Origin: Dehalococcoidia bacterium
Lineage (GTDB): Bacteria > Chloroflexota > Dehalococcoidia > GIF9 > AB-539-J10
Length of the DNA stretch: 64,000 nucleotides
Assembly: GCA_030611085.1 (NCBI GenBank)
Contig: JAUWQI010000002.1
Coordinates: forward strand, 37,961 to 101,960
Direction of reading: 5' to 3'
Made by a program: the position numbers and the translations under genes. The notes under the pieces are model-generated. The model was given only the letters and a program-made list of their open reading frames with translations, was not told where the DNA came from and made no database searches. Positions 30,762 to 53,988 of this stretch are shown in pieces. The stretch's first letter is position 1, and every line of letters begins with the position of its first letter.

Positions 30762-30838
30762 TGGCGCGCCTAGAGGGATTCGAACCCACGACCCCCGGTT
30801 CCGAAGACCGGTGCTCTTGTCCGCTGAGCTACAGGCGC
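30762..30838 (-). tRNA. tRNA-Arg (anticodon TCG), CCA encoded
   Basis: Manual cloverleaf: acceptor gcgcctg/taggcgc, anticodon arm ccggt-cTTCGga-accgg, GGTTCGAATCC T-loop (one U-U in the T-stem). Confidence 0.85.
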
Positions 30839-30844
30839 AAAAAG

Positions 30845-30918
30845 GGTGAACGGTGGGATTTGAACCCACGATCTCCAGGGCCACAACCTGGCGCCTTAAC
30901 CACTGGGCTACGCTCACC
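30845..30918 (-). tRNA. tRNA-His (anticodon GTG) with encoded G-1, no CCA
   Basis: Acceptor gtgagcg/cgttcac with extra 5' G opposite C73; anticodon arm ccagg-ttGTGgc-cctgg; T-arm gtggg-ttcaaat-cccac. Confidence 0.85.
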
Positions 30919-38117: not shown

Positions 38118-38193
38118 GGGCGATTAGCTCAGTGGTGAGAGCGCTTGCTTCACACGCAAGAGGTCACTGGTTCAAATCCAGTATCGCCCACCA
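38118..38193 (+). tRNA. tRNA-Val (anticodon CAC), CCA encoded
   Basis: gggcgat acceptor, anticodon arm cttgc-ttCACac-gcaag, GGTTCAAATCC. Confidence 0.9.
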
Positions 38194-38225
38194 TAAACTA
38201 TATAATAATACAGGGAGGCTAATAA

Positions 38226-38603
38226 ATGGCTGAAGACAGAGGTGGCTTACTTAGTGCTGGCGGAATCCTGAGTATAATAGTGGGAGCTTCTGAACTAATC
38301 GGAGGGGGAGCATTAGTAGCCCTATTTGCCATGGATATCGCAGTTCCCCCATTCCCGGGTTTCCCAGGCTTTGGAGTTGGCCTTAGTATGGCTCTAGTCA
38401 CAACTCGGCTGATTATTGTAGGAGCTGCCCTTGTTGTGCTGGGCATAGTAGCTATAGCTGGTGGCATATCGGCTATAAGAAGGAGCAGTTTGGGATTATC
38501 TTTAGCGGGAGCTATTTGTGCCCTTCTTCCCATCAATGTCCTGGGAATACTGGCGGTTATTTTTGTCTCCCTGGCAAAGGGAGAATTTGAGGCGGAAGAA
38601 TAA
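38226..38603 (+). CDS. Small hydrophobic membrane protein (about 4 TM) embedded in the tRNA cluster
   Basis: 125 aa, Gly/Ala/Ile/Leu-rich TM segments, AGGGAGG RBS about 9 nt upstream of the ATG. No family recognised. Confidence 0.5.
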   Translation: MAEDRGGLLSAGGILSIIVGASELIGGGALVALFAMDIAVPPFPGFPGFGVGLSMALVTTRLIIVGAALVVLGIVAIAGGISAIRRSSLGLSLAGAICALLPINVLGILAVIFVSLAKGEFEAEE

Positions 38604-38605
38604 AA

Positions 38606-38691
38606 GCCGAAGTGGCGGAAAGGCAGACGCGCTACGTTCAGGGCGTAGTGTCCTTAAGGACGTGAGGGTTCAAATCCCTCCTTCGGCACCA
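38606..38691 (+). tRNA. tRNA-Leu (anticodon CAG), long variable arm, CCA encoded
   Basis: Close to E. coli tRNA-Leu(CAG) architecture: gccgaag acceptor, ctacg-ttCAGgg-cgtag, variable arm tgtccttaaggacg. Confidence 0.85.
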
Positions 38692-38692
38692 T

Positions 38693-38769
38693 GCGCCTGT
38701 GGCTCAGTAGGATAGAGCGCAGCCCTGCGGAGGCTGAGGTCGCGGGTTCGAATCCCGCCAGGCGTACCA
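38693..38769 (+). tRNA. tRNA-Arg (anticodon GCG), CCA encoded
   Basis: Acceptor gcgcctg/caggcgt, anticodon arm cagcc-ctGCGga-ggctg, GGTTCGAATCC. Confidence 0.8.
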
Positions 38770-38770
38770 T

Positions 38771-38843
38771 GGGCGGTTAGCTCAGTGGTTAGAGCACCAG
38801 TTTTACACACTGGGGGTCAGAGGTTCAAGTCCTCTACCGCCCA
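38771..38843 (+). tRNA. tRNA-Val (anticodon TAC), no CCA
   Basis: gggcggt acceptor, ccagt-ttTACac-actgg, GGTTCAAGTCC. Confidence 0.85.
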
Positions 38844-39066
38844 CTTTTAGCTGAGTTCAGGCCATTCGTTGTAGCTGCCGAAGGTAACCTTCTATGTAAT
38901 CTTTGACCTCATTTGCTGGTTGGTAAATAGGGGTGTGATATCTCGGCACTACCAATGATATAAACATTTTCCCAGATGCGAAAAGGCCTGGACATCTGCT
39001 ATTTTTGCGGTTGCGGAGAGCTATTCACGAGATTTGAGAGGGCACAAGCGGGCAGCCGGGACGCCA

Positions 39067-48759: not shown

Positions 48760-48854
48760 GTTAAAAGCACGCCTTTAAGGTTACGCATTATAGCGGTATG
48801 TGTAATACCCCTAGTAACTCTTACTGGAAGAAAATTTCTCCTAGTCTGCTTGCC

Positions 48855-48884
48855 TTGACTTCCCTAATTGTCGGGGGATAGAGT
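48855..48884 (+). promoter_or_regulatory. Candidate promoter TTGACT-N18-TAGAGT; would give a leaderless or near-leaderless HEAT-gene mRNA
   Basis: The -10-like hexamer ends 7 nt before ATG 48892; no SD in between. Confidence 0.25.
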
Positions 48885-48891
48885 ACGCAGG

Positions 48892-49347
48892 ATGGGGTTA
48901 TTTAAGCCAAATGTTGAGAAAATGAGAGCCGAGGATGATGTTGAAGGCTTGATAAAGGCGCTGGGGAGGAATGATGACATTCGAGTTGCGGGAGTAGTGG
49001 AAGATGCTCTTGGAGAGATAGGGCACAGAACCACTGAACCTTTCATTGAAGCTCTGAGAGATAAGGATTCTGGTGTCCGTAGTGGAGCTGCCTGGATTCT
49101 TGGGAATATCAAAGATGCCAGGGCCCAAGAACCACTCATTGAAGCTCTAAAGGATAAGGATAAAGATGTTAGATGGCTAGCAGTAACGGCTCTCGGAGAT
49201 ATCGGAGATGAGAGGGCAATAGGCCCTATCAGCATGGTTCCCACTGATGATGACGAATTCCTTAAGGAAATGGTAGCGGAGGCGCTTAAACAAATAAGGA
49301 GTAGATATCAAGAGATAAAAGGAGGGAGATTACAAGATGGCAACTAA
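48892..49347 (+). CDS. HEAT-repeat (PBS-lyase HEAT-like) protein
   Basis: Repeated ~31-aa units: EDALGEIGHRTTEPFIEALRDKDSGVRSGAAWILGNIKDARAQEPLIEALKDKDKDVRWLAVTALGDIGDERAIGPI. The ORF-track start 48868 is a TTG. Confidence 0.7.
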   Translation: MGLFKPNVEKMRAEDDVEGLIKALGRNDDIRVAGVVEDALGEIGHRTTEPFIEALRDKDSGVRSGAAWILGNIKDARAQEPLIEALKDKDKDVRWLAVTALGDIGDERAIGPISMVPTDDDEFLKEMVAEALKQIRSRYQEIKGGRLQDGN

Positions 49348-50062
49348 AGAAGATTTCCAAAAGGCTCCGACTAAGGTCATAGTTTTCAGTCCATGTTCTG
49401 ACAGTAAAAGTGATAAGCTAGAAATCACCCGTGGTTTTAAGACACCAGAAGCCTACCTAGAAAGCCATGAGCTTCTCGAAAAGCTGAGGAACACGCGGAA
49501 GCATATTCTTGAGGAACTCGGAGCGCAAAAGGGAAATAAGGCAACTTATGCTTTAGACCTTTATACCGGGCGTGCTTACGCAGAGATGAGAAGCAGTGGC
49601 AGTTATGATCGGTTGAAACAAAGATTATTAAGTGGAGATGAAATTCAGTGGTTTTTCCTTTCAGGCGCCTATGGTGTCATAAATGCACTCGAAAAGGCTT
49701 TGAGATATGAGGCTACCTTTAATAGGAGCATTGCGAATAAAAACAAAATTCCTTGGACCGCCGACATATGGCGTAAAACAGGCTTGTCTAGGATGTGCGA
49801 TGAAATTATTCAGTGGTTTAATCTATCGTTTGTATACATTTTCGGTAGCAGAGATTACACAGATTTCATCAAAGGCACAAATTTTTGGAATGGGGGCGAT
49901 ATTAAAGGTGTCAAAATGTTTGAGAGTACCGGGCAGAATGGAACCAACTGGCTTTCGCCGCGGCTGAACCACTTGGCTGAAGCGATTCTCAGAGGTAATT
50001 TGGATAATTTTAACTCTAGATATCCGAAGAGGTTTTATAAACAAGGAGAGTGTGGTAACTAG
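49337..50062 (+). CDS. Hypothetical protein with YaaA(DUF328)/DUF6884-like motif order
   Basis: 241 aa; GGAGGG RBS; VIVFSPCSDSKSD .. ALDLYTGRAYAEM .. WFFLSGAYGVINALEKALRYEATF. The family assignment is from memory of motif order only. Confidence 0.45.
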   Translation: MATKEDFQKAPTKVIVFSPCSDSKSDKLEITRGFKTPEAYLESHELLEKLRNTRKHILEELGAQKGNKATYALDLYTGRAYAEMRSSGSYDRLKQRLLSGDEIQWFFLSGAYGVINALEKALRYEATFNRSIANKNKIPWTADIWRKTGLSRMCDEIIQWFNLSFVYIFGSRDYTDFIKGTNFWNGGDIKGVKMFESTGQNGTNWLSPRLNHLAEAILRGNLDNFNSRYPKRFYKQGECGN

Positions 50063-51345
50063 TGAGGATAGAAGTAACTGGAGCCCGAGATAGTCTCCTG
50101 TTTCATTGGCCTGAGGGTGCCGAAGAATATAGTCCAGTTATCAAGGTCGGGGTGTCAGGCTTCAACTATGCTAAGCCTCCTAAGCTATATATAGCCTATG
50201 GTTACCGAAAAGTGTTTGGAGCCCTACGCAGGCGTATCTTGGTTTTCAGAAATGAAGCCGATGTCCTTGCTGAGTTTGTCGGTGCGGATAGTTGGGCACA
50301 GGATAAGCGAGTTGCTACATTCCTCCGGAGGGATGGAAGCAAAAGCTATCTTCGTGTGGATGACCCTCTCCCTTCCCGTTACAAGGTGTTTAATGTAGTT
50401 CGTTCACAGTCTGTCGTTACAGGGCCATACGCTCCTCAGTGCTTTGCTGCCATCGTTGATGAAGCAGATTTGCCTTTGCTAGCAGCAGTTGCCATAGCAA
50501 GAGAGCAGGGAGAGGCTCCTGACATGGCAGAGACAATCCCTATCGTTAAGCCAACTACTGTTGATGCCATCAATCCACCGGTAGCAAGCCACGACCGCAG
50601 CCGAGATGCGGTACAAGCTCTTCTCGATTATCGCAGTAAACAAGAGACTGGAGGCTCTTTCACTGGCGGTAATAAAGAAGCGGACGAATTTTTACGCCAG
50701 AATCCTTTTGCATTCCTGATGGCAGCCTCAATTGACAGAGGAGCACTTGCCGAGGCAGTGTGGGAAATTCCCTTTCTTCTGAATAAGAAGCTTGGGCAGC
50801 TTGACCCCAAATTACTATCTCAAATGAGATTAGAGCAGCTAGAGGAGGTCTTACGTTCGCTGGATAGGAAACCACGCTTTCCGAGACAATCAGCCCAAAC
50901 GATAATTTCTCTTTCTGGATTGGTGTTCAATCAATTTCATGGGAACGCAGCCAATATATGGGAGGATAAAAAGCCATCGAATATCGTGCAAACTCTAGAG
51001 CAAATTTGGGGCGTTGGCCCCGGCATTGCTCACATGATAGTTCGTATTCTGGTAGATGAATTTGGCTACGATCCTGGCCCAGAAGGATTGAGACAAATTG
51101 ATGTCAAGCCTGATACACATATTATAAGAGTATTCTGTAGAACAGGACTTACTCAGAATAGGAGTGGGAAGGCCTGTGTAGAGGCTGCGCGACAACTATA
51201 CCCAGAGTTTCCTGGATTACTAGATTGGCCAGCTTGGGAAATTGGACGAACTTGGTGCCATGAGCATAGTCCAGAATGCGTGAAATGTCCTCTCTACAAT
51301 ATTTGTCCGACGATTGACATTCGGATAAAGGAAAGGCAAAGTTGA
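50062..51345 (+). CDS. Two-domain protein: unknown ~200-aa N-terminal domain + HhH-GPD DNA-glycosylase-like domain with EndoIII/MutY-type 4Fe-4S cluster loop
   Basis: 427 aa, GTG start in a TAGTG overlap. HhH LEQIWGVGPGIAHMIV, DPGPEGLRQIDVKPDTHIIRV (Gly/Pro loop + Asp), CHEHSPECVKCPLYNIC = C-X6-C-X2-C-X5-C. Confidence 0.7.
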   Translation: MRIEVTGARDSLLFHWPEGAEEYSPVIKVGVSGFNYAKPPKLYIAYGYRKVFGALRRRILVFRNEADVLAEFVGADSWAQDKRVATFLRRDGSKSYLRVDDPLPSRYKVFNVVRSQSVVTGPYAPQCFAAIVDEADLPLLAAVAIAREQGEAPDMAETIPIVKPTTVDAINPPVASHDRSRDAVQALLDYRSKQETGGSFTGGNKEADEFLRQNPFAFLMAASIDRGALAEAVWEIPFLLNKKLGQLDPKLLSQMRLEQLEEVLRSLDRKPRFPRQSAQTIISLSGLVFNQFHGNAANIWEDKKPSNIVQTLEQIWGVGPGIAHMIVRILVDEFGYDPGPEGLRQIDVKPDTHIIRVFCRTGLTQNRSGKACVEAARQLYPEFPGLLDWPAWEIGRTWCHEHSPECVKCPLYNICPTIDIRIKERQS

Positions 51346-51511
51346 GGAGTATGTCCAGTACGACAGAAGTCCATAACATGTATAGGGTCACAGAAGCTCG
51401 ATTTGTTACCTCATTGCACAATCGTCCAAAATGTTTATCCTTAATAAAAAGTGCTTCTCAGGCACTGAGGCACCAAGTAATAACTCTGACTTCTAGCGAC
51501 TTCAGCATTTT

Positions 51512-52149
51512 TTACCATGATTTAACATGTTTTGCGATGGCATTTATCGCCTCGAATGTCTCTAAAGAAGGCAAAGAGTAGCCAGTTCTTATCCTGGCGT
51601 ATTCCTGTTTCGGCTCAGGAAAAATCCAAATACTCCCTTTTAAATCTTTAAGATTAGATTGTAATAGTCTATCTTCCAGACCATAGTCGAAATTAAGGCT
51701 CTCTGCCTTTGAGATTGATCCGCGGAGTCTGTCCTGAGCGAGATTCTTCGGTCGCTTCGCTTCCTCAGAATGACAGGAAGCGAAGGGCTCGCAATAACAG
51801 GGGGAGGTATTCGCTTCCCTATCATGTTTGGGGTCTCCACTAAATAATCCATAAAGTAATTTGTTCCATATTGGCTAGCTACGCCGATAACATTTATGGA
51901 ATCTATATTTCTATCCTTCAGCTCAATAATTCCCATAGATTTCTCGCCCGAAGCGCGTTTCAGGCCTATCTTTTCCTGCTCGACTCCAGCTTCTACCGCA
52001 TATGCCTTCACTCCCATTTCCTGAAGATGCTGGCAAAGCTCCTCGCCTTTTGGGGACTACTTCTTCTTTCTTTTGCGCAGGGTCAATATCCCACTAGCCA
52101 CTACAGCGGCAAATACGAAGCCGAGTAAGTTACTCCAGTCCCAGTCCAT
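51512..52149 (-). pseudogene. Decayed membrane-anchored gene: in-frame TAG, R1 repeat insertion and frame change
   Basis: Minus strand: MDWDWSNLLGFVFAAVVASGILTLRKRKKK-TAG-SPKGEELCQHLQEMGVKAYAVEAG..MDYLVETPNMIGKRIPP, then R1 (51717-51800). The reading then continues in another frame: ISKAESLNFDYGLEDRLLQSNLKDLKGSIWIFPEPKQEYARIRTGYSLPSLETFEAINAIAKHVKSW*. Confidence 0.4.
51717..51800. repeat. R1 repeat (composite) inside the decayed ORF
   Basis: ctgtcctgagcgagattcttcggtcgcttcgcttcctcagaatgacaggaagcgaagggctcgcaataac. Confidence 0.85.
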
Positions 52150-52154
52150 ATAGC

Positions 52155-52403
52155 CTAAATTTTCTCTATTTCAAACCTGTAATCTTCGATCACGGGATTA
52201 GCTAGCAACTTCTTACACATCTCATTGACTTGCTGTTGTGCAATACTTGAGTCGTTTTCCTCTAGCTTAACTTCCATATACTTACCAGCACGGACACTTG
52301 TCACCTCGGCGAAACCCAAATTATGCAACGCTCCCTTTATGGTCAAGCCCTGGGGGTCGTTAACCGTGGGTTTTAAAGTGATATAAATTTTAGCTAGATA
52401 CAT
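52155..52403 (-). CDS. purS: Phosphoribosylformylglycinamidine synthase subunit PurS
   Basis: 82 aa; ITLKPTVNDPQGLTIKGALHNLGF, LANPVIEDYRFEI. Confidence 0.85.
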   Translation of the reverse strand: MYLAKIYITLKPTVNDPQGLTIKGALHNLGFAEVTSVRAGKYMEVKLEENDSSIAQQQVNEMCKKLLANPVIEDYRFEIEKI

Positions 52404-52421: not shown

Positions 52422-52640
52422 TCATAGCAGTTCAAGGAATTCTTTTACCGAGAGCTCTGCTACTCGAATTATGCTCCTCAGCGTCCCAGGGTCTAACTCC
52501 TTATGCTTGGGAACAGTTACTGGATTTCGTCCTAGACATCTTAACCTCACATGATCTCCCTTAGTCCGAGCCACATAATACCCTAAACGCTCTAAAGCCT
52601 TTATGCATTCGTCCCCAGAAATAATCGGCAGTTTTGCCAT
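52422..52640 (-). CDS. hicA: HicA-family mRNA interferase toxin
   Basis: 72 aa; ISGDECIKALERLGYYVARTKGDHVRL..TVPKHKELDPGTLRSIIR. Confidence 0.8.
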   Translation of the reverse strand: MAKLPIISGDECIKALERLGYYVARTKGDHVRLRCLGRNPVTVPKHKELDPGTLRSIIRVAELSVKEFLELL

Positions 52641-52852
52641 CAGGCAGCCACTTCAATCTGTTCAATAGTGTACTCGTTGTTAAGTATCCATCCCTCTTCT
52701 TCTGCACTCTCCAAACACAACTCAGCGGCTTCCTTGATGTTAGCCAACGCCTCTTTTACAGTTTTCCCTTGAGAGATGCAACCAGGCAGGACAGGCACTT
52801 CAGCTACAATATATCCTGCCTCACCTGGTCTTAGAACTACTGGTAACTTCAT
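52640..52852 (-). CDS. hicB: HicB-family antitoxin (UPF0150, single domain)
   Basis: 70 aa; GYIVAEVPVLPGCISQGKTVKEALANIKEAAELCLE; 1-nt overlap with hicA. Confidence 0.8.
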   Translation of the reverse strand: MKLPVVLRPGEAGYIVAEVPVLPGCISQGKTVKEALANIKEAAELCLESAEEEGWILNNEYTIEQIEVAA

Positions 52853-53064: not shown

Positions 53065-53988
53065 TCAAAGTGATTTTGAGACATTTAGCTGATAACCAGT
53101 AAGCAGCTTATATATTTTATTATATCGCTGTGCCGTGGATTCAACTAGATGGGGTGGCAACATAGGTGCTGGAGGTTCTTTATCCCATCCTTGACTTAAA
53201 AGCCAGTCACGGACTGGCTGCTTATCTAAGCTGGGCTGTGAACCACCAACCTTGTATTGGCTAGCATCCCAGAAGCGGCTCGAGTCGGGAGTTAATAGTT
53301 CGTCAATAAGGGCTAATTCGCCATTAATGAAGCCAAACTCAAACTTGGTATCAGCAATTATTACGCCTTTAGTTTTAGCGTAATCTCGAGCATAGCGGTA
53401 AATAAGCAAGCTTTTTTCTTCTAACTCTCCAATCAGGTCTTTAATGCCAAGTTTCCTTATGTCTTGAGCGTTCAGAGGACGATCGTGCTCCGTGTCGCTT
53501 TTGGTAGTGGGGGTAAATATAGGTTGAGGCAATTCTTGACTTTCCTTCATTCCCGATGGTAAATCAATACTGCCGACTTTCCCAGTCTCTTTATACTCTG
53601 CCCATGCCGAGCCAGACAAATAGCCCCGAACGATACATTCTACAGGGATACGCTCAGCCTTAGCTACAAGCATAGAGCGATTTATAAGGTAGTCAGGTAA
53701 CTCTCCAGAATGCCCCGAGAGATTCTTCACTTCGTTCAGAATGACATTGCCATCAATCACCTTAATAAAATGACTGGGAATAATATGGGCTGTTTTCTCA
53801 AACCAGAAGGCTGAAAGTTGATTAAGAACCTTTCCTTTGCCAGGGATACCACAGGGTAGAACAAAATCGAAGGCAGAGATGCGGTCAGCAGACACTATAA
53901 GAAGCTTATCACCTAAATCATAAACATCTCTCACCTTACCCCGTCGAAATAGGGGAAAGGGTAAATCAGTCTCTAACAAAGCAGGCAT
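53065..53988 (-). CDS. purC: SAICAR synthetase (long form)
   Basis: 307 aa; RGKVRDVYDLGDKLLIVSADRISAFD, IPVECIVRGYLSGS, IIADTKFEFG, TPDSSRFW. Carries an in-frame R1 repeat unit. Confidence 0.9.
   Translation of the reverse strand: MPALLETDLPFPLFRRGKVRDVYDLGDKLLIVSADRISAFDFVLPCGIPGKGKVLNQLSAFWFEKTAHIIPSHFIKVIDGNVILNEVKNLSGHSGELPDYLINRSMLVAKAERIPVECIVRGYLSGSAWAEYKETGKVGSIDLPSGMKESQELPQPIFTPTTKSDTEHDRPLNAQDIRKLGIKDLIGELEEKSLLIYRYARDYAKTKGVIIADTKFEFGFINGELALIDELLTPDSSRFWDASQYKVGGSQPSLDKQPVRDWLLSQGWDKEPPAPMLPPHLVESTAQRYNKIYKLLTGYQLNVSKSL
53717..53750. repeat. R1 unit inside purC coding sequence
   Basis: gagagattcttcacttcgttcagaatgacattgc; translated in frame as ..GNVILNEVKNLSG.. Confidence 0.75.

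What the first reader, a model, noticed from the sequence alone, without database searches (positions are those of the whole stretch)
48855..51345. HEAT-repeat / YaaA-DUF6884-like / novel-domain HhH-GPD iron-sulfur glycosylase operon
Seen in the sequence:
- Three tightly packed plus-strand genes lie in a convergent gap between the aldolase gene and the pur operon.
- Gene 2 overlaps gene 1 by 11 nt and has a GGAGGG RBS.
- Gene 3 starts at a GTG inside a TAGTG stop/start overlap.

The C-terminal ~225 aa of gene 3 carry three DNA-glycosylase hallmarks:
- a helix-hairpin-helix (LEQIWGVGPGIAHMIV)
- a Gly/Pro loop followed by Asp (DPGPEGLRQIDVKPDTHIIRV)
- an exact C-X6-C-X2-C-X5-C (CHEHSPECVKCPLYNIC)

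Established knowledge: this combination defines HhH-GPD glycosylases with the EndoIII/MutY 4Fe-4S cluster loop. The HhH lysine of bifunctional EndoIII is not present here (GVGPGIA), so the protein would be monofunctional or binding-only.

The N-terminal ~200 aa of gene 3 have no motif I recognise. Gene 2 shows the motif order SPCSDSK .. LDLYTG .. LSGAYGV..RYE. I associate that order with YaaA (DUF328) and DUF6884-type proteins, which are themselves poorly understood DNA-associated proteins. Gene 1 is a short HEAT-repeat scaffold. Gene 2 is visibly more AT-rich than gene 3.

Inference: this may be a dedicated DNA base-surveillance or modification module. Glycosylase-based antiviral defence has been described recently, but not with this architecture as far as I know.
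Basis: partly seen in the sequence, partly recalled or inferred. Interest (0 to 1): 0.7.

Follow-up and report, generated by a model that had tools for sequence, protein, structure and literature searches.

The report
HEAT–DUF6884–FeS glycosylase base-excision cassette
Three tightly packed genes encode a small HEAT-repeat protein, a YaaA-like DNA-binding protein (DUF6884) and an iron-sulfur DNA glycosylase with an extra domain that matches no known family. The last two are neighbours or fused in many bacteria and archaea and sit in anti-phage islands in this branch, so they probably form an undescribed system that cuts unusual bases out of foreign or damaged DNA.

Summary
Three plus-strand genes are present: g1 (48892-49347), g2 (49337-50062) and g3 (50062-51345).

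- **g1** is a HEAT_2 protein (E 2e-30).
- **g2** is a divergent DUF6884/YaaA-superfamily protein. It carries both DUF6884 signature motifs, and its only significant PDB fold match is E. coli YaaA.
- **g3** has two domains. The N-terminal domain (NTD) is beta-rich and has no Pfam, PDB or Foldseek match. The C-terminal domain is an EndoIII-like HhH-GPD/[4Fe-4S] domain that keeps the catalytic Asp and four Cys but has Gly in place of the lyase Lys.

The g2-g3 link is real. DUF6884 is the only recurrent neighbour of this glycosylase family (fused or within two genes in 22 of 80 species). All pairwise fusions and one triple fusion (DUF6884-NTD-HhH-GPD) exist. g2-type proteins otherwise pair with AGOG glycosylases or GIY-YIG nucleases.

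Close g3 relatives lie in defence islands, often followed by a PD-(D/E)XK "REase-ARP" nuclease. The nearest relative keeps the HEAT-DUF6884-g3 order in a different genomic site, but with a swapped DUF6884 gene.

Best reading: a mobile two-component base-excision module, probably anti-foreign-DNA; a repair role is not excluded. It is a new variant of a known kind, and its function is untested.

The parts
48832..48891 (+). Conserved upstream region of g1. It contains a promoter-like site, TTGACT-18 nt-TAGAGT, at 48855-48884.
   Evidence: Nucleotide similarity to HEAT-led cassettes in other contigs (L174, L181, L182) begins at 48832-48839. The promoter-like match comes, but such matches are no more frequent here than in shuffles, so this part is tentative.
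48892..49347 (+). g1: a 151-aa HEAT-repeat protein (PBS-lyase-type HEAT repeats). It is the conserved leading gene of the cassette.
   Evidence: - Pfam HEAT_2 E 2.1e-30 and HEAT_PBS E 4e-16.
- Start at ATG 48892 according to gene callers.
- About 40 protein clusters at 64-88% identity.
- 81% identical to the HEAT gene in front of the DUF6884 + g3 homologues in L174.
- The same HEAT gene precedes a frameshifted DUF6884 plus a GIY-YIG nuclease in L178-L180.
49337..50062 (+). g2: a 241-aa DUF6884/YaaA-superfamily protein with the 'cantaloupe' alpha/beta fold. It is a putative DNA-binding, base-flipping subunit with conserved Cys20-x3-Lys24 and Leu108-Ser-Gly-x2-Gly113.
   Evidence: - PF21818 E 6.7e-5 and PF03883 E 2.8e-4, both below the gathering scores.
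- 40-sequence family alignment with invariant C20, K24, L108, S109, G110, G113, E119 and Y124.
- AlphaFold model pLDDT 93.1.
- Foldseek top hit YaaA 5caj: E 5.6e-5, probability 1.0, TM 0.51.
49323..50095 (.). Swapped segment. This is the block with no nucleotide similarity to the nearest relative (L174). It spans the last 8 codons of g1, all of g2 and the first 11 codons of g3.
   Evidence: - blastn of the window against L174 gives 85% identity over 48839-49322 and 83% over 50096-51412, with nothing in between.
- Protein identities to L174 are g1 81%, g2 44% and g3 77%.
- g2 G+C is 0.419, against 0.456 for g1 and 0.474 for g3.
50062..50511 (+). g3 N-terminal domain (NTD), aa 1-150. It is a beta-rich domain that matches no described family. 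I propose it is a DNA or modified-base reader module.
   Evidence: - Invariant residues include F14, H15, W16, R56, R57, R58, E71, F72, Y96, R98 and Y107.
- AlphaFold pLDDT 83, pTM 0.80.
- No PDB or BFVD fold match: best E 0.87 and 0.19.
- No Pfam hit or PDB profile hit.
- 110 representative clusters carry the domain. Most are stand-alone proteins or HTH_17 fusions.
- It is also fused to DUF6884, to HhH-GPD, to a McrB-type AAA_5 domain and, weakly, to an SfsA-like nuclease.
50617..51345 (+). g3 C-terminal domain, aa 186-427. It is an EndoIII-like HhH-GPD DNA glycosylase domain with a [4Fe-4S] cluster loop. The catalytic Asp351 is kept. The EndoIII lyase Lys is replaced by Gly321.
   Evidence: - TIGR03252 E 3e-14, nth E 1.7e-4, mutY E 9e-3.
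- Alignment to EndoIII 1orn over aa 209-426.
- Family profile against the PDB: EndoIII E 1.5e-8 and MutY E 1.8e-7.
- Census of 80 species: Asp in 78/80, each Cys in 78-79/80, and Lys 52 versus Gly 28 at the lyase position.

Best explanation
g2 and g3 form a two-component DNA base-excision module. g1 (HEAT) is a lineage-specific accessory or leader gene. The three travel together as a small mobile cassette.

**Proposed mechanism (inferred, not shown).**
1. The YaaA-like DUF6884 protein binds duplex DNA and flips a non-canonical base, or engages the resulting abasic site, in its conserved Cys/Lys pocket.
2. g3 is brought to the same DNA by its N-terminal reader-like domain.
3. g3 removes the base with its EndoIII-type Asp. 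Because it lacks the lyase Lys, it acts as a monofunctional glycosylase and leaves an abasic site.
4. The abasic site is processed to a strand break by one of three agents: DUF6884, host AP endonucleases, or, in many relatives, an adjacent PD-(D/E)XK 'REase-ARP' nuclease.

**Proposed target.** In the branch that includes the window's g3, the likely target is foreign DNA carrying modified bases. That would make the module a modification-dependent (type IV-like) restriction system that works by base excision.

**Status of the steps.**
- Shown: domain identities, conservation of catalytic residues, the gene-fusion and co-occurrence network, the defence-island contexts of close relatives, and the cassette mosaicism.
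- Inferred: substrate, order of action, physical interaction and the defence phenotype.
For: **1. Functional linkage of DUF6884 with the glycosylase family**
- In 80 species-level loci chosen by the glycosylase domain, DUF6884 is the only neighbour family that recurs: 6 fused, 14 adjacent and 2 within two genes. All other neighbours are singletons.
- In the reverse direction, 14 of 36 g2-family loci with adequate flanks have this glycosylase immediately adjacent.
- Fusions exist in every combination:
  - DUF6884-HhH-GPD: P0030, P0035, P0089
  - NTD-DUF6884 and DUF6884-NTD: P0154, P0168, P0173, P0235
  - DUF7669-DUF6884-NTD-HhH-GPD in one 698-aa protein: P0215

**2. The alternative partners of g2-type DUF6884 proteins are all DNA-incision enzymes**
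- GIY-YIG nucleases, 24 loci. The identification rests on hhalign probability 99.8 to a GIY_YIG_3 protein and on one member passing the PF20815 threshold.
- AGOG glycosylases, 7 loci.
- A second HhH-GPD-like family, 6 loci.

**3. The active site is under selection**
- Asp 78/80 and each Cys 78-79/80.
- Variants without the Lys are paired with DUF6884 more often than variants with it: 13/28 versus 9/52, Fisher p 0.008, not corrected for phylogeny.

**4. Precedent within the superfamily**
- DpdC (DUF328/DUF6884) converts preQ0 to ADG on duplex DNA in vitro (PMC10164549, PMC12839542, PMC11888242).
- B. subtilis YfjM (DUF6884) is enriched on abasic-site and ribonucleotide lesions (PMC10220248, PMC11701544).

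**5. Defence context of close g3 relatives (57-77% identity)**
- L005, L007 and L008 sit beside an OLD+UvrD (Gabija-like) pair, CBASS genes, an MmeI-type R-M gene, Dam+DUF87 and an integrase. In each, g3 is followed by REase-ARP/PDDEXK_13.
- L176 is followed by REase-ARP.
- L177 reads wHTH-DUF6884 | g3 | ADP-ribosylglycohydrolase | REase-ARP | Dam methyltransferase.
- L154 lies next to a DNA methyltransferase-like gene and 435-aa and 761-aa ORFs that I read as McrC/McrB-like from their sequences only (no HMM run).
- L012 lies beside a WYL regulator, a putative VapBC-type toxin-antitoxin pair (called by eye, not HMM-checked), PDDEXK_4, and an OGG-like (PF21790) protein plus a Cas4-like nuclease.
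- The NTD is also fused to a McrB-type AAA_5 domain (P0153).

**6. Mobility**
- L174 keeps HEAT | DUF6884 | g3 but has different flanking genes and a replaced DUF6884 gene.
- The HEAT+DUF6884+GIY-YIG block in L178/L179 interrupts a comM-like Mg-chelatase gene.
Against: - **No experiment.** No substrate, interaction or phenotype is known for any member.
- **The window's own context is not a defence island.** The genes lie between an aldolase gene and the pur operon. The only accessory neighbour is a HicAB pair. The REase-ARP nuclease seen in relatives is absent.
- **The wider family has mixed or housekeeping neighbours.**
  - EutA, transaldolase, CinA and pol III delta' appear around the pairs.
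  - The fusion protein P0089 sits among mla, holA and pil genes.
  - Several g2-type pairs lie between neighbours I identified by eye as aminoacyl-tRNA-synthetase genes. This fits repair as well as defence.
- **PADLOC gives no significant hit** for g3 and only weak ones for g2: PDC-M57A E 2e-3 and DpdC E 0.03.
- **Most glycosylase family members stand alone.** 58 of the 80 have no DUF6884 within two genes.
- **The NTD reader role is inferred** from domain architectures only, and the model has no structural analogue.
- **Methods caveat.** The context statistics use my own ORF calls and ad hoc HMMs. The sequences are not phylogenetically independent.
Confidence: 0.45

Rival explanations
1. An accessory base-excision REPAIR module. 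g3 removes an endogenous lesion (oxidised, alkylated or deaminated base). The DUF6884 protein binds, shields or processes the abasic product, or recognises the lesion. The role would be protection of the host genome, not immunity.
For: - YfjM (DUF6884) is pulled down on abasic-site and ribonucleotide lesions (PMC10220248). YaaA is a peroxide-stress DNA-binding protein (PMC11701544).
- g2-type proteins also pair with AGOG, an 8-oxoG glycosylase family.
- Most of the glycosylase family keeps the full EndoIII Lys+Asp dyad: 52 of 80.
- Many pairs and fusions sit among housekeeping genes.
- The window locus lies between metabolic genes.
- The module is nearly absent from viral contigs: 10 distant stand-alone hits for the glycosylase and none for g2 or the NTD.
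Against: - Distribution is sporadic and rare, unlike core repair genes: the pattern-limited scan kept 154 relatives among 185,579 species genomes.
- The close relatives of this g3 are embedded in defence islands next to restriction-type nucleases, methyltransferases, an OLD+UvrD (Gabija-like) pair and CBASS genes.
- The NTD is fused to a McrB-type AAA_5 domain.
- The cassette is mobile and mosaic, with a swapped middle gene.
Confidence: 0.3
2. A modify-and-excise (R-M-like or toxin-like) pair. The DUF6884 protein is an enzyme that chemically alters a base in DNA, as DpdC does. The alteration either marks self DNA so that g3 spares it, or creates the lesion that g3 then excises.
For: - DpdC, a DUF328/DUF6884 member, is a proven enzyme acting on a base in duplex DNA within an R-M-type system (PMC10164549).
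- g2 has an invariant Cys/Lys/Ser/Glu/Tyr constellation that suggests catalysis.
- Restriction glycosylases paired with a modification enzyme are known (PMC10273834).
- Dam-type methyltransferases occur next to several g3 relatives.
Against: - g2 matches DpdC only at E 0.03. No DpdA/DpdB or preQ0 genes were seen in the annotated part of the window, 46-54 kb.
- No cofactor-binding domain was detected in g2.
- Single-polypeptide DUF6884-glycosylase fusions fit cooperation on one substrate more simply than antagonistic self/non-self marking.
- Many glycosylase family members lack any DUF6884 partner.
Confidence: 0.1
3. The three genes are adjacent by accident of insertion and have no joint function. 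g1 would be an unrelated resident HEAT gene, and g2 and g3 independent accessory genes.
For: - The g1 family is highly conserved (64-88% identity) and is found in front of different downstream genes.
- The 11-nt g1/g2 overlap coincides with a recombination junction. It may therefore be a by-product of the swap, not evolved coupling.
- No g1 homologue lies next to any of the other g2- or g3-centred loci scanned.
Against: - g2/g3: multiple independent fusions and recurrent adjacency in many phyla. Start/stop overlap also occurs in L113 and L154.
- g1: HEAT precedes DUF6884 + g3 again in L174, at a different genomic site. It precedes a frameshifted DUF6884 + GIY-YIG in L178-L180.
Confidence: 0.05

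Closest known systems
Endonuclease III (Nth) / MutY: HhH-GPD glycosylases with a [4Fe-4S] cluster loop
   Same: - The helix-hairpin-helix, the Gly/Pro loop with catalytic Asp, and the C-X6-C-X2-C-X5-C loop all align.
- These are the only PDB families hit by the family profile.
   Different: - Well below the nth, mutY and Pfam HhH-GPD cut-offs.
- Gly replaces the EndoIII lyase Lys.
- The conserved N-terminal half carries a distinct D225-R226 motif. D225 is conserved in 70 and R226 in 69 of the 80 homologues.
- It has an extra 150-aa N-terminal domain.
- Distribution is sporadic rather than universal.
- It has a dedicated DUF6884 partner.
END nucleases (inactivated EndoIII/OGG sensor fused to PLD, PD-DExK or McrB; preprint PMC12191111)
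   Same: - An EndoIII-superfamily module is used in defence islands, apparently to recognise non-canonical bases.
- It is associated with PD-(D/E)XK nucleases. McrB-type GTPases are in the same domain network.
- An OGG-like PF21790 protein plus a nuclease lies right beside the L012 homologue.
   Different: - END domains have lost the catalytic residues. Here the Asp and the FeS ligands are almost invariant, so excision rather than sensing alone is expected.
- No nuclease is fused, and none is adjacent in the window.
- The recurrent partner is DUF6884, which does not occur in the text of the END preprint (full-text search).
DpdC (DUF328/DUF6884 member of the Dpd 7-deazaguanine R-M system)
   Same: It belongs to the same YaaA-like superfamily as g2. 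It is a proven enzyme acting on a base within duplex DNA in a defence system (PMC10164549, PMC12839542, PMC11888242).
   Different: - g2 matches the DpdC model only at E 0.03.
- No dpdA/dpdB or preQ0 genes were seen nearby.
- g2's partner is a glycosylase, not a transglycosylase.
E. coli YaaA (5caj) and B. subtilis YfjM
   Same: - Same fold: Foldseek probability 1.0.
- CxxxK and LSAxxG-type motifs are present (PMC11701544).
- Both bind DNA, and YfjM binds lesions (PMC10220248).
   Different: - 12% identity to YaaA.
- g2 forms a separate ~225-aa subfamily of its own.
- It is encoded with a glycosylase or GIY-YIG partner rather than alone.
Glycosylase-based antiviral defence (Brig1, 5hmC glycosylase) and restriction glycosylases (R.PabI family)
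   Same: The concept is the same: base excision from foreign DNA as the restriction step (PMC11611026, PMC13160076, PMC10273834).
   Different: - The protein folds are different. From my own knowledge, Brig1 belongs to the uracil-DNA-glycosylase superfamily and R.PabI has the HALFPIPE fold.
- Those are single-protein systems or have methyltransferase partners. None has a DUF6884 partner, an FeS cluster or the NTD.

Membership tests
HhH-GPD superfamily (EndoIII/MutY-type, with FeS cluster loop) | Helix-hairpin-helix followed by a Gly/Pro-rich loop and a catalytic Asp | tested here: met
   GVGPGIAHM and DVKPD351THIIRV align to the EndoIII HhH and the VDTH Asp. Asp is kept in 78/80 homologues.
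HhH-GPD superfamily (EndoIII/MutY-type, with FeS cluster loop) | C-X6-C-X2-C-X5-C [4Fe-4S] ligand loop | tested here: met
   C399, C406, C409 and C415 are present and align to the EndoIII cluster loop. Each Cys is kept in 78-79/80 homologues. Cluster binding itself was not tested.
HhH-GPD superfamily (EndoIII/MutY-type, with FeS cluster loop) | Significant profile similarity to solved family members | tested here: met
   Family profile against the PDB: EndoIII E 1.5e-8, MutY E 1.8e-7, and 1orn over nearly the full domain at E 2.4e-7. No other families were hit.
HhH-GPD superfamily (EndoIII/MutY-type, with FeS cluster loop) | Pfam PF00730 gathering score | tested here: not met
   13.6 bits against a cut-off of 26.2. 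Some homologues carry a precomputed PF00730 hit.
Endonuclease III (nth, TIGR01083) orthologue | Equivalog score and the lyase Lys (E. coli K120) | tested here: not met
   21.3 bits against a cut-off of 211.7. Gly321 occupies the Lys position.
TIGR03252 (uncharacterised HhH-GPD-type repair protein) | NCBIfam cut-off of 136.5 bits | tested here: not met
   53 bits, covering only aa 204-338. It is related but not a member.
DUF6884 (PF21818) | Pfam gathering score | tested here: not met
   23.5 bits against a cut-off of 30. Several g2-family homologues do carry PF21818.
DUF6884 (PF21818) | Conserved CxxxK and LSAxxG motifs (PMC11701544) | tested here: met
   C20-SDS-K24 and L108-S-G-AY-G113 are invariant in 40 family members. 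The third motif residue is Gly instead of Ala.
YaaA/DUF328-DUF6884 superfamily | 'Cantaloupe' alpha/beta fold | tested here: met
   A model with pLDDT 93 gives YaaA 5caj as the only significant PDB hit: E 5.6e-5, probability 1.0, TM 0.51/0.48.
YaaA (PF03883 / NF002543) | Family cut-offs | tested here: not met
   20.9 bits against 29.6 for PF03883, and 13.6 against 204 for NF002543.
DpdC / Dpd system | Significant DpdC model match plus dpdA/dpdB neighbours | tested here: not met
   PADLOC DpdC E 0.029. No TGT-like or ParB-like genes were seen in the annotated part of the window, 46-54 kb.
END nucleases | Catalytically inactivated EndoIII/OGG domain | tested here: not met
   The catalytic Asp is retained and almost invariant.
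END nucleases | Fusion to a nuclease or McrB effector | tested here: not met
   g3 has no nuclease domain. Relatives have an adjacent, not fused, REase-ARP nuclease. The window has none.
Anti-phage defence system (generic) | Enrichment in defence islands | tested here: inconclusive
   Met for the NTD-bearing close relatives. Not met for the window locus itself or for the wider family.
Anti-phage defence system (generic) | Protection phenotype | not testable with these tools
   This needs plaque or transformation assays.
HEAT repeat proteins (PF13646) | Pfam gathering score | tested here: met
   105.2 bits against a cut-off of 27.7.

The most novel reading that the evidence does not exclude
DUF6884/YaaA-like proteins would be the common specificity subunit of a previously unrecognised class of modular DNA base-surveillance systems. 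This subunit would flip out and inspect a base. It would be wired to interchangeable cutting partners: an FeS HhH-GPD glycosylase, an AGOG glycosylase or a GIY-YIG nuclease. In Dehalococcoidia-like lineages the system would be packaged behind a conserved HEAT gene as a mobile cassette.

The g3 N-terminal domain would be a new fold of modified-DNA reader, shared with McrB-type restriction enzymes. The window's cassette would then be a base-excision type IV restriction system with an enzymatically active EndoIII-like effector.
Probability: 0.3. Interest if true: 0.8.

Novelty: new variant of a known kind. Interest (0 to 1): 0.62.

Why it matters
- **It gives DUF6884/YaaA proteins a testable context.** This is a large and poorly understood family, and E. 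coli YaaA's molecular role is still unclear. The context found here is constant partnership with enzymes that cut DNA at a base (HhH-GPD, AGOG, GIY-YIG). That suggests concrete assays: an abasic-site or flipped-base handover to a glycosylase.
- **It could extend glycosylase-based immunity.** If the defence reading holds, EndoIII-type domains would serve in immunity as catalytically intact iron-sulfur enzymes. Known examples are Brig1 and the inactivated sensor domain of END nucleases.
- **It adds a candidate reader domain.** The module carries a widespread domain (110 representative clusters) with no structural or family assignment, which could be a new DNA-reader domain.
- **It may be useful as a tool.** An enzyme that excises a specific modified base could be used for mapping DNA modifications.

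Tried and rejected
**Tried without a result**
- Foldseek of the NTD model against the PDB and BFVD gave no match: best E 0.87 and 0.19, TM <= 0.3.
- The NTD profile against PDB sequences gave no hits.
- Pfam and NCBIfam scans of g3 and of stand-alone NTD proteins found nothing for the NTD itself. The only hits in those proteins were HTH_17/excisionase N-terminal extensions and a weak SfsA match.
- PADLOC gave no hit for g3 and only weak hits for g1 and g2.
- Viral contig scans found no g2-family or NTD relatives. They found only 10 distant stand-alone glycosylase hits, none with a DUF6884 partner.
- A search for strain variants lacking the insertion, using identical PurS, returned only the same arrangement.
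- Cluster look-up returned no source names or organism.
- Literature searches for REase-ARP, DpdC+YaaA and YaaA+ARH+EndoIII found nothing relevant. Only 4 papers mention DUF6884, and none links it to glycosylases.

**Considered and rejected**
- *g3 as an ordinary Nth/MutY orthologue.* Its scores are far below the equivalog cut-offs, and its distribution is sporadic.
- *g1 as an AlkC/AlkD-type HEAT-like glycosylase.* There is no hit to that family; g1 is a PBS-lyase-type HEAT protein.
- *The narrow g2-family HMM as a detector of DUF6884 in general.* It missed known DUF6884 fusions, so I built a broader ad hoc profile.
- *Evolved translational coupling as the explanation for the g1/g2 overlap.* The overlap sits exactly at a recombination junction.

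Full report
**1. The observation**

The three plus-strand ORFs exist as described.
- g1 runs 48868-49347 from the first TTG. Gene callers on identical metagenomic contigs start it at ATG 48892, giving 151 aa.
- g2 runs 49337-50062 (241 aa, ATG).
- g3 runs 50062-51345 (427 aa, GTG).

The junctions are also as described.
- The GGAGGG sequence 8 nt before the g2 ATG and the 11-nt g1/g2 overlap are in the sequence.
- The g2 stop and g3 start share the G of TAGTG.
- Homologues of g3 begin within a few residues of the same position.

Upstream lie PFK and a DeoC/LacD aldolase on the plus strand. Downstream, on the minus strand, lie an unknown 125-aa ORF, purS, hicA, hicB and purC. G+C is 0.456 for g1, 0.419 for g2 and 0.474 for g3, against 0.457 for the whole window.

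**2. The proteins**

*g1* is a HEAT-repeat protein: PF13646 E 2e-30, HEAT_PBS E 4e-16.

*g2* scores below the gathering thresholds for DUF6884 (23.5 bits) and YaaA (20.9 bits). Three other lines of evidence place it in that superfamily.
- A 40-member family alignment has invariant C20-x3-K24 and L108-S-G-x2-G113. These are the CxxxK and LSAxxG signatures that Pfam's curators give for DUF6884 (PMC11701544).
- Its AlphaFold model has pLDDT 93.
- E. coli YaaA (5caj) is the model's only significant PDB match: E 5.6e-5, probability 1.0.

*g3* has two domains joined by a variable linker.
- Residues 186-427 are EndoIII-like.
  - NCBIfam hits: TIGR03252 E 3e-14, nth E 1.7e-4, mutY E 9e-3.
  - The domain aligns to B. 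stearothermophilus EndoIII over the HhH, the catalytic Asp and the cluster loop.
  - A 47-sequence profile hits only EndoIII and MutY in the PDB, best E 1.5e-8.
- In 80 species-level homologues, Asp351 is kept in 78 and each cluster Cys in 78-79. The EndoIII lyase Lys position is Lys in 52 and Gly in 28, and the window's branch has Gly. The domain therefore looks like an active glycosylase. It is monofunctional in this branch, and it is not an inactivated sensor.
- Residues 1-150 (the NTD) are strongly conserved and model as a beta-rich domain with pLDDT 83 and pTM 0.80.
- The NTD has no Pfam family, no PDB sequence-profile hit and no Foldseek match in the PDB or BFVD.

**3. Are the genes linked?**

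*From the glycosylase side.* A scan of one genome per species kept 154 relatives, scattered over Chloroflexota, Planctomycetota, Acidobacteriota, Desulfobacterota, archaea and other groups. The best was a Dehalococcoidia MAG at 72% identity. I clustered the neighbours in the best 80 loci.
- The only recurrent neighbour family is DUF6884: 6 fused, 14 adjacent and 2 within two genes.
- All other neighbours are singletons.

*From the g2 side.* In 80 metagenomic loci, the immediate neighbours fall into four recurrent families:

| Neighbour family | Loci | Basis for the identification |
|---|---|---|
| This glycosylase family | 21 | Family HMM. 14 of 36 loci with adequate flanks have it immediately adjacent. 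|
| GIY-YIG nuclease family | 24 | hhalign probability 99.8 to a GIY_YIG_3 protein. One member passes PF20815. |
| AGOG glycosylases | 7 | PF09171, E 2e-21 |
| Second HhH-GPD/FeS-like family | 6 | Weak hits to the family HMM |

*Fusions.* Every pairing of the three modules also occurs as a fusion protein.
- DUF6884-HhH-GPD: P0030, P0035, P0089.
- NTD with DUF6884, in both orders: P0154, P0173, P0168, P0235.
- DUF7669-DUF6884-NTD-HhH-GPD in one chain: P0215. The order of modules matches the order of genes in the window.

*Lys-less variants.* Glycosylases without the Lys are paired with DUF6884 more often than those with it: 13/28 against 9/52, Fisher p 0.008, without phylogenetic correction.

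**4. g1 and mobility**

The nearest g3 relative with flanking sequence (L174, 77% identity) has the order HEAT | DUF7662-DUF6884 | g3, but its flanking genes differ from the window's.
- Its HEAT protein is 81% identical to g1, and its DUF6884 protein is only 44% identical to g2.
- At the DNA level, similarity covers 48839-49322 and 50096-51412. Nothing matches in between.
- The DUF6884 gene has therefore been swapped between conserved flanks. This explains g2's lower G+C. The left junction falls just before the g1 stop, so the 11-nt overlap may be a by-product of the swap.

The g1 family has about 40 close clusters at 64-88% identity. Its members precede different downstream genes.
- In L178-L180, HEAT is followed by a frameshifted DUF6884 (ad hoc profile E 4e-12) and a GIY-YIG nuclease. 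In L178/L179 this block interrupts a comM-like Mg-chelatase gene.
- In L181/L182, HEAT is followed by a zinc-ribbon protein and a 159-aa protein, among AbiE and ParE toxin-antitoxin modules.

HEAT is thus a conserved leader of small mobile cassettes. Three of the four cassette types seen contain DUF6884 plus a DNA-cutting partner.

**5. Defence or repair?**

Close NTD-bearing relatives of g3 lie in defence islands:

| Locus | Identity to g3 | Context |
|---|---|---|
| L005 | 59% | Dam methyltransferase, DUF87, OLD+UvrD (Gabija-like); g3 followed by REase-ARP/PDDEXK_13 |
| L007 | 57% | CBASS genes, Dam methyltransferase, DUF87, MmeI-type R-M gene; g3 followed by REase-ARP/PDDEXK_13 |
| L008 | 58-60% | Integrase, OLD-family nuclease; g3 followed by REase-ARP/PDDEXK_13 |
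| L176 | 70% | g3 followed by REase-ARP |
| L177 | 62% | wHTH-DUF6884 \| g3 \| ADP-ribosylglycohydrolase \| REase-ARP \| Dam methyltransferase |
| L154 | 64% | Beside a methyltransferase-like gene and ORFs I read as McrBC-like (by eye only) |
| L012 | 72% | WYL regulator, PDDEXK_4, a putative VapBC-type pair (by eye), and an OGG-like PF21790 protein plus a Cas4-like nuclease |

The OGG-like protein plus nuclease in L012 is the domain pair that occurs fused in END nucleases (PMC12191111). The NTD itself is also fused to a McrB-type AAA_5 domain (P0153) and, weakly, to an SfsA-like nuclease.

Several observations point the other way.
- The window locus has only a HicAB pair nearby.
- The wider family's neighbourhoods are heterogeneous.
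- Some g2 + glycosylase pairs lie between neighbours I identified by eye as aminoacyl-tRNA-synthetase genes.
- B. subtilis YfjM (DUF6884) binds abasic-site and ribonucleotide lesions (PMC10220248).

On the enzymatic side, DpdC, a DUF328/DUF6884 member, converts preQ0-DNA to ADG-DNA (PMC10164549, PMC12839542, PMC11888242). The superfamily therefore does contain an enzyme that acts on a base in duplex DNA.

**6. Verdict**

g2 and g3 form a self-contained two-component base-excision module. g1 is a lineage-specific leader or accessory gene.
- I put "defence by base excision" at 0.45. In that reading the module is type IV-like: the glycosylase is active, and strand breaks are completed by DUF6884, host AP endonucleases or REase-ARP.
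- I put "accessory repair" at 0.30, "modify-and-excise" at 0.10 and "no joint function" at 0.05.

Nothing in the searchable literature describes the DUF6884-glycosylase pairing or the NTD. Glycosylase-based and EndoIII-domain-based defence are both already known. I therefore rate the finding a new variant of a known kind, with interest about 0.6.

**7. Limits**
- Context statistics rest on my own ORF calling and ad hoc HMMs.
- The locus retrieval tool finds only relatives that match short conserved patterns.
- Many metagenomic contigs are short.
- The sequences are not phylogenetically independent.
- No biochemical or phenotypic data exist for any member.

Noticed in passing
window 52422-52852 (-): A HicA/HicB toxin-antitoxin pair sits between purS (52155-52403) and purC (53065-53988), apparently inserted inside the pur operon.
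   Followed up: partly
window 51640-52017 (-): A 125-aa ORF between g3 and purS has no Pfam hit. It is also called as a gene on independent contigs of the same organism. Its function is unknown.
   Followed up: partly
L178 800-5300 and L179 (HEAT homologue loci): A block of about 3 kb interrupts a comM-like Mg-chelatase gene, splitting ChlI from Mg_chelatase_C. The block contains HEAT, a frameshifted DUF6884, a GIY-YIG nuclease and an HTH gene. It may be a small integrase-less mobile element or a homing-endonuclease-type cassette.
   Followed up: partly
L005 1-3671 and L007 3885-7999: A conserved triad lies directly upstream of the g3 homologue in two defence islands: a Dam-type methyltransferase (D12), a DUF87 (HerA-like) ATPase and an unknown 430-aa protein. 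In L005 an OLD+UvrD+RNase_H_2 block is inserted between the triad and g3. The triad may be a separate system or an extended one.
   Followed up: no
L012 6918-9145: An OGG-like PF21790 protein (E 4.6e-37) lies next to a Cas4-like PD-(D/E)XK nuclease. These are the two domains that are fused in END nucleases, here as separate genes. They sit immediately upstream of the DUF6884 + g3 homologue pair.
   Followed up: partly
L177 2811-4615: An ADP-ribosylglycohydrolase, split into 156-aa and 104-aa ORFs, lies between the g3 homologue and the REase-ARP nuclease. One more ARH gene occurs near a wider-family pair. This hints at a link to ADP-ribosylated DNA or nucleotides.
   Followed up: no
80 species loci L012-L091 (glycosylase family): The EndoIII lyase-Lys position is Lys in 52 and Gly in 28 homologues. 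The Gly variants are paired with DUF6884 more often: 13/28 versus 9/52, p 0.008 uncorrected. DUF6884 might supply the missing abasic-site chemistry.
   Followed up: partly
P0038 (364 aa homologue): One relative fuses a MazG-like nucleotide pyrophosphohydrolase domain (PF12643) to the same glycosylase module. P0057 and P0062 carry long unknown C-terminal extensions. The glycosylase module is highly modular.
   Followed up: no
window 30762-30917 and 38118-38844: Two tRNA clusters: Arg-His on the minus strand, and Val, Leu, Arg, Val on the plus strand. Neither is adjacent to the cassette, so there is no tRNA-linked integration signature for it.
   Followed up: no
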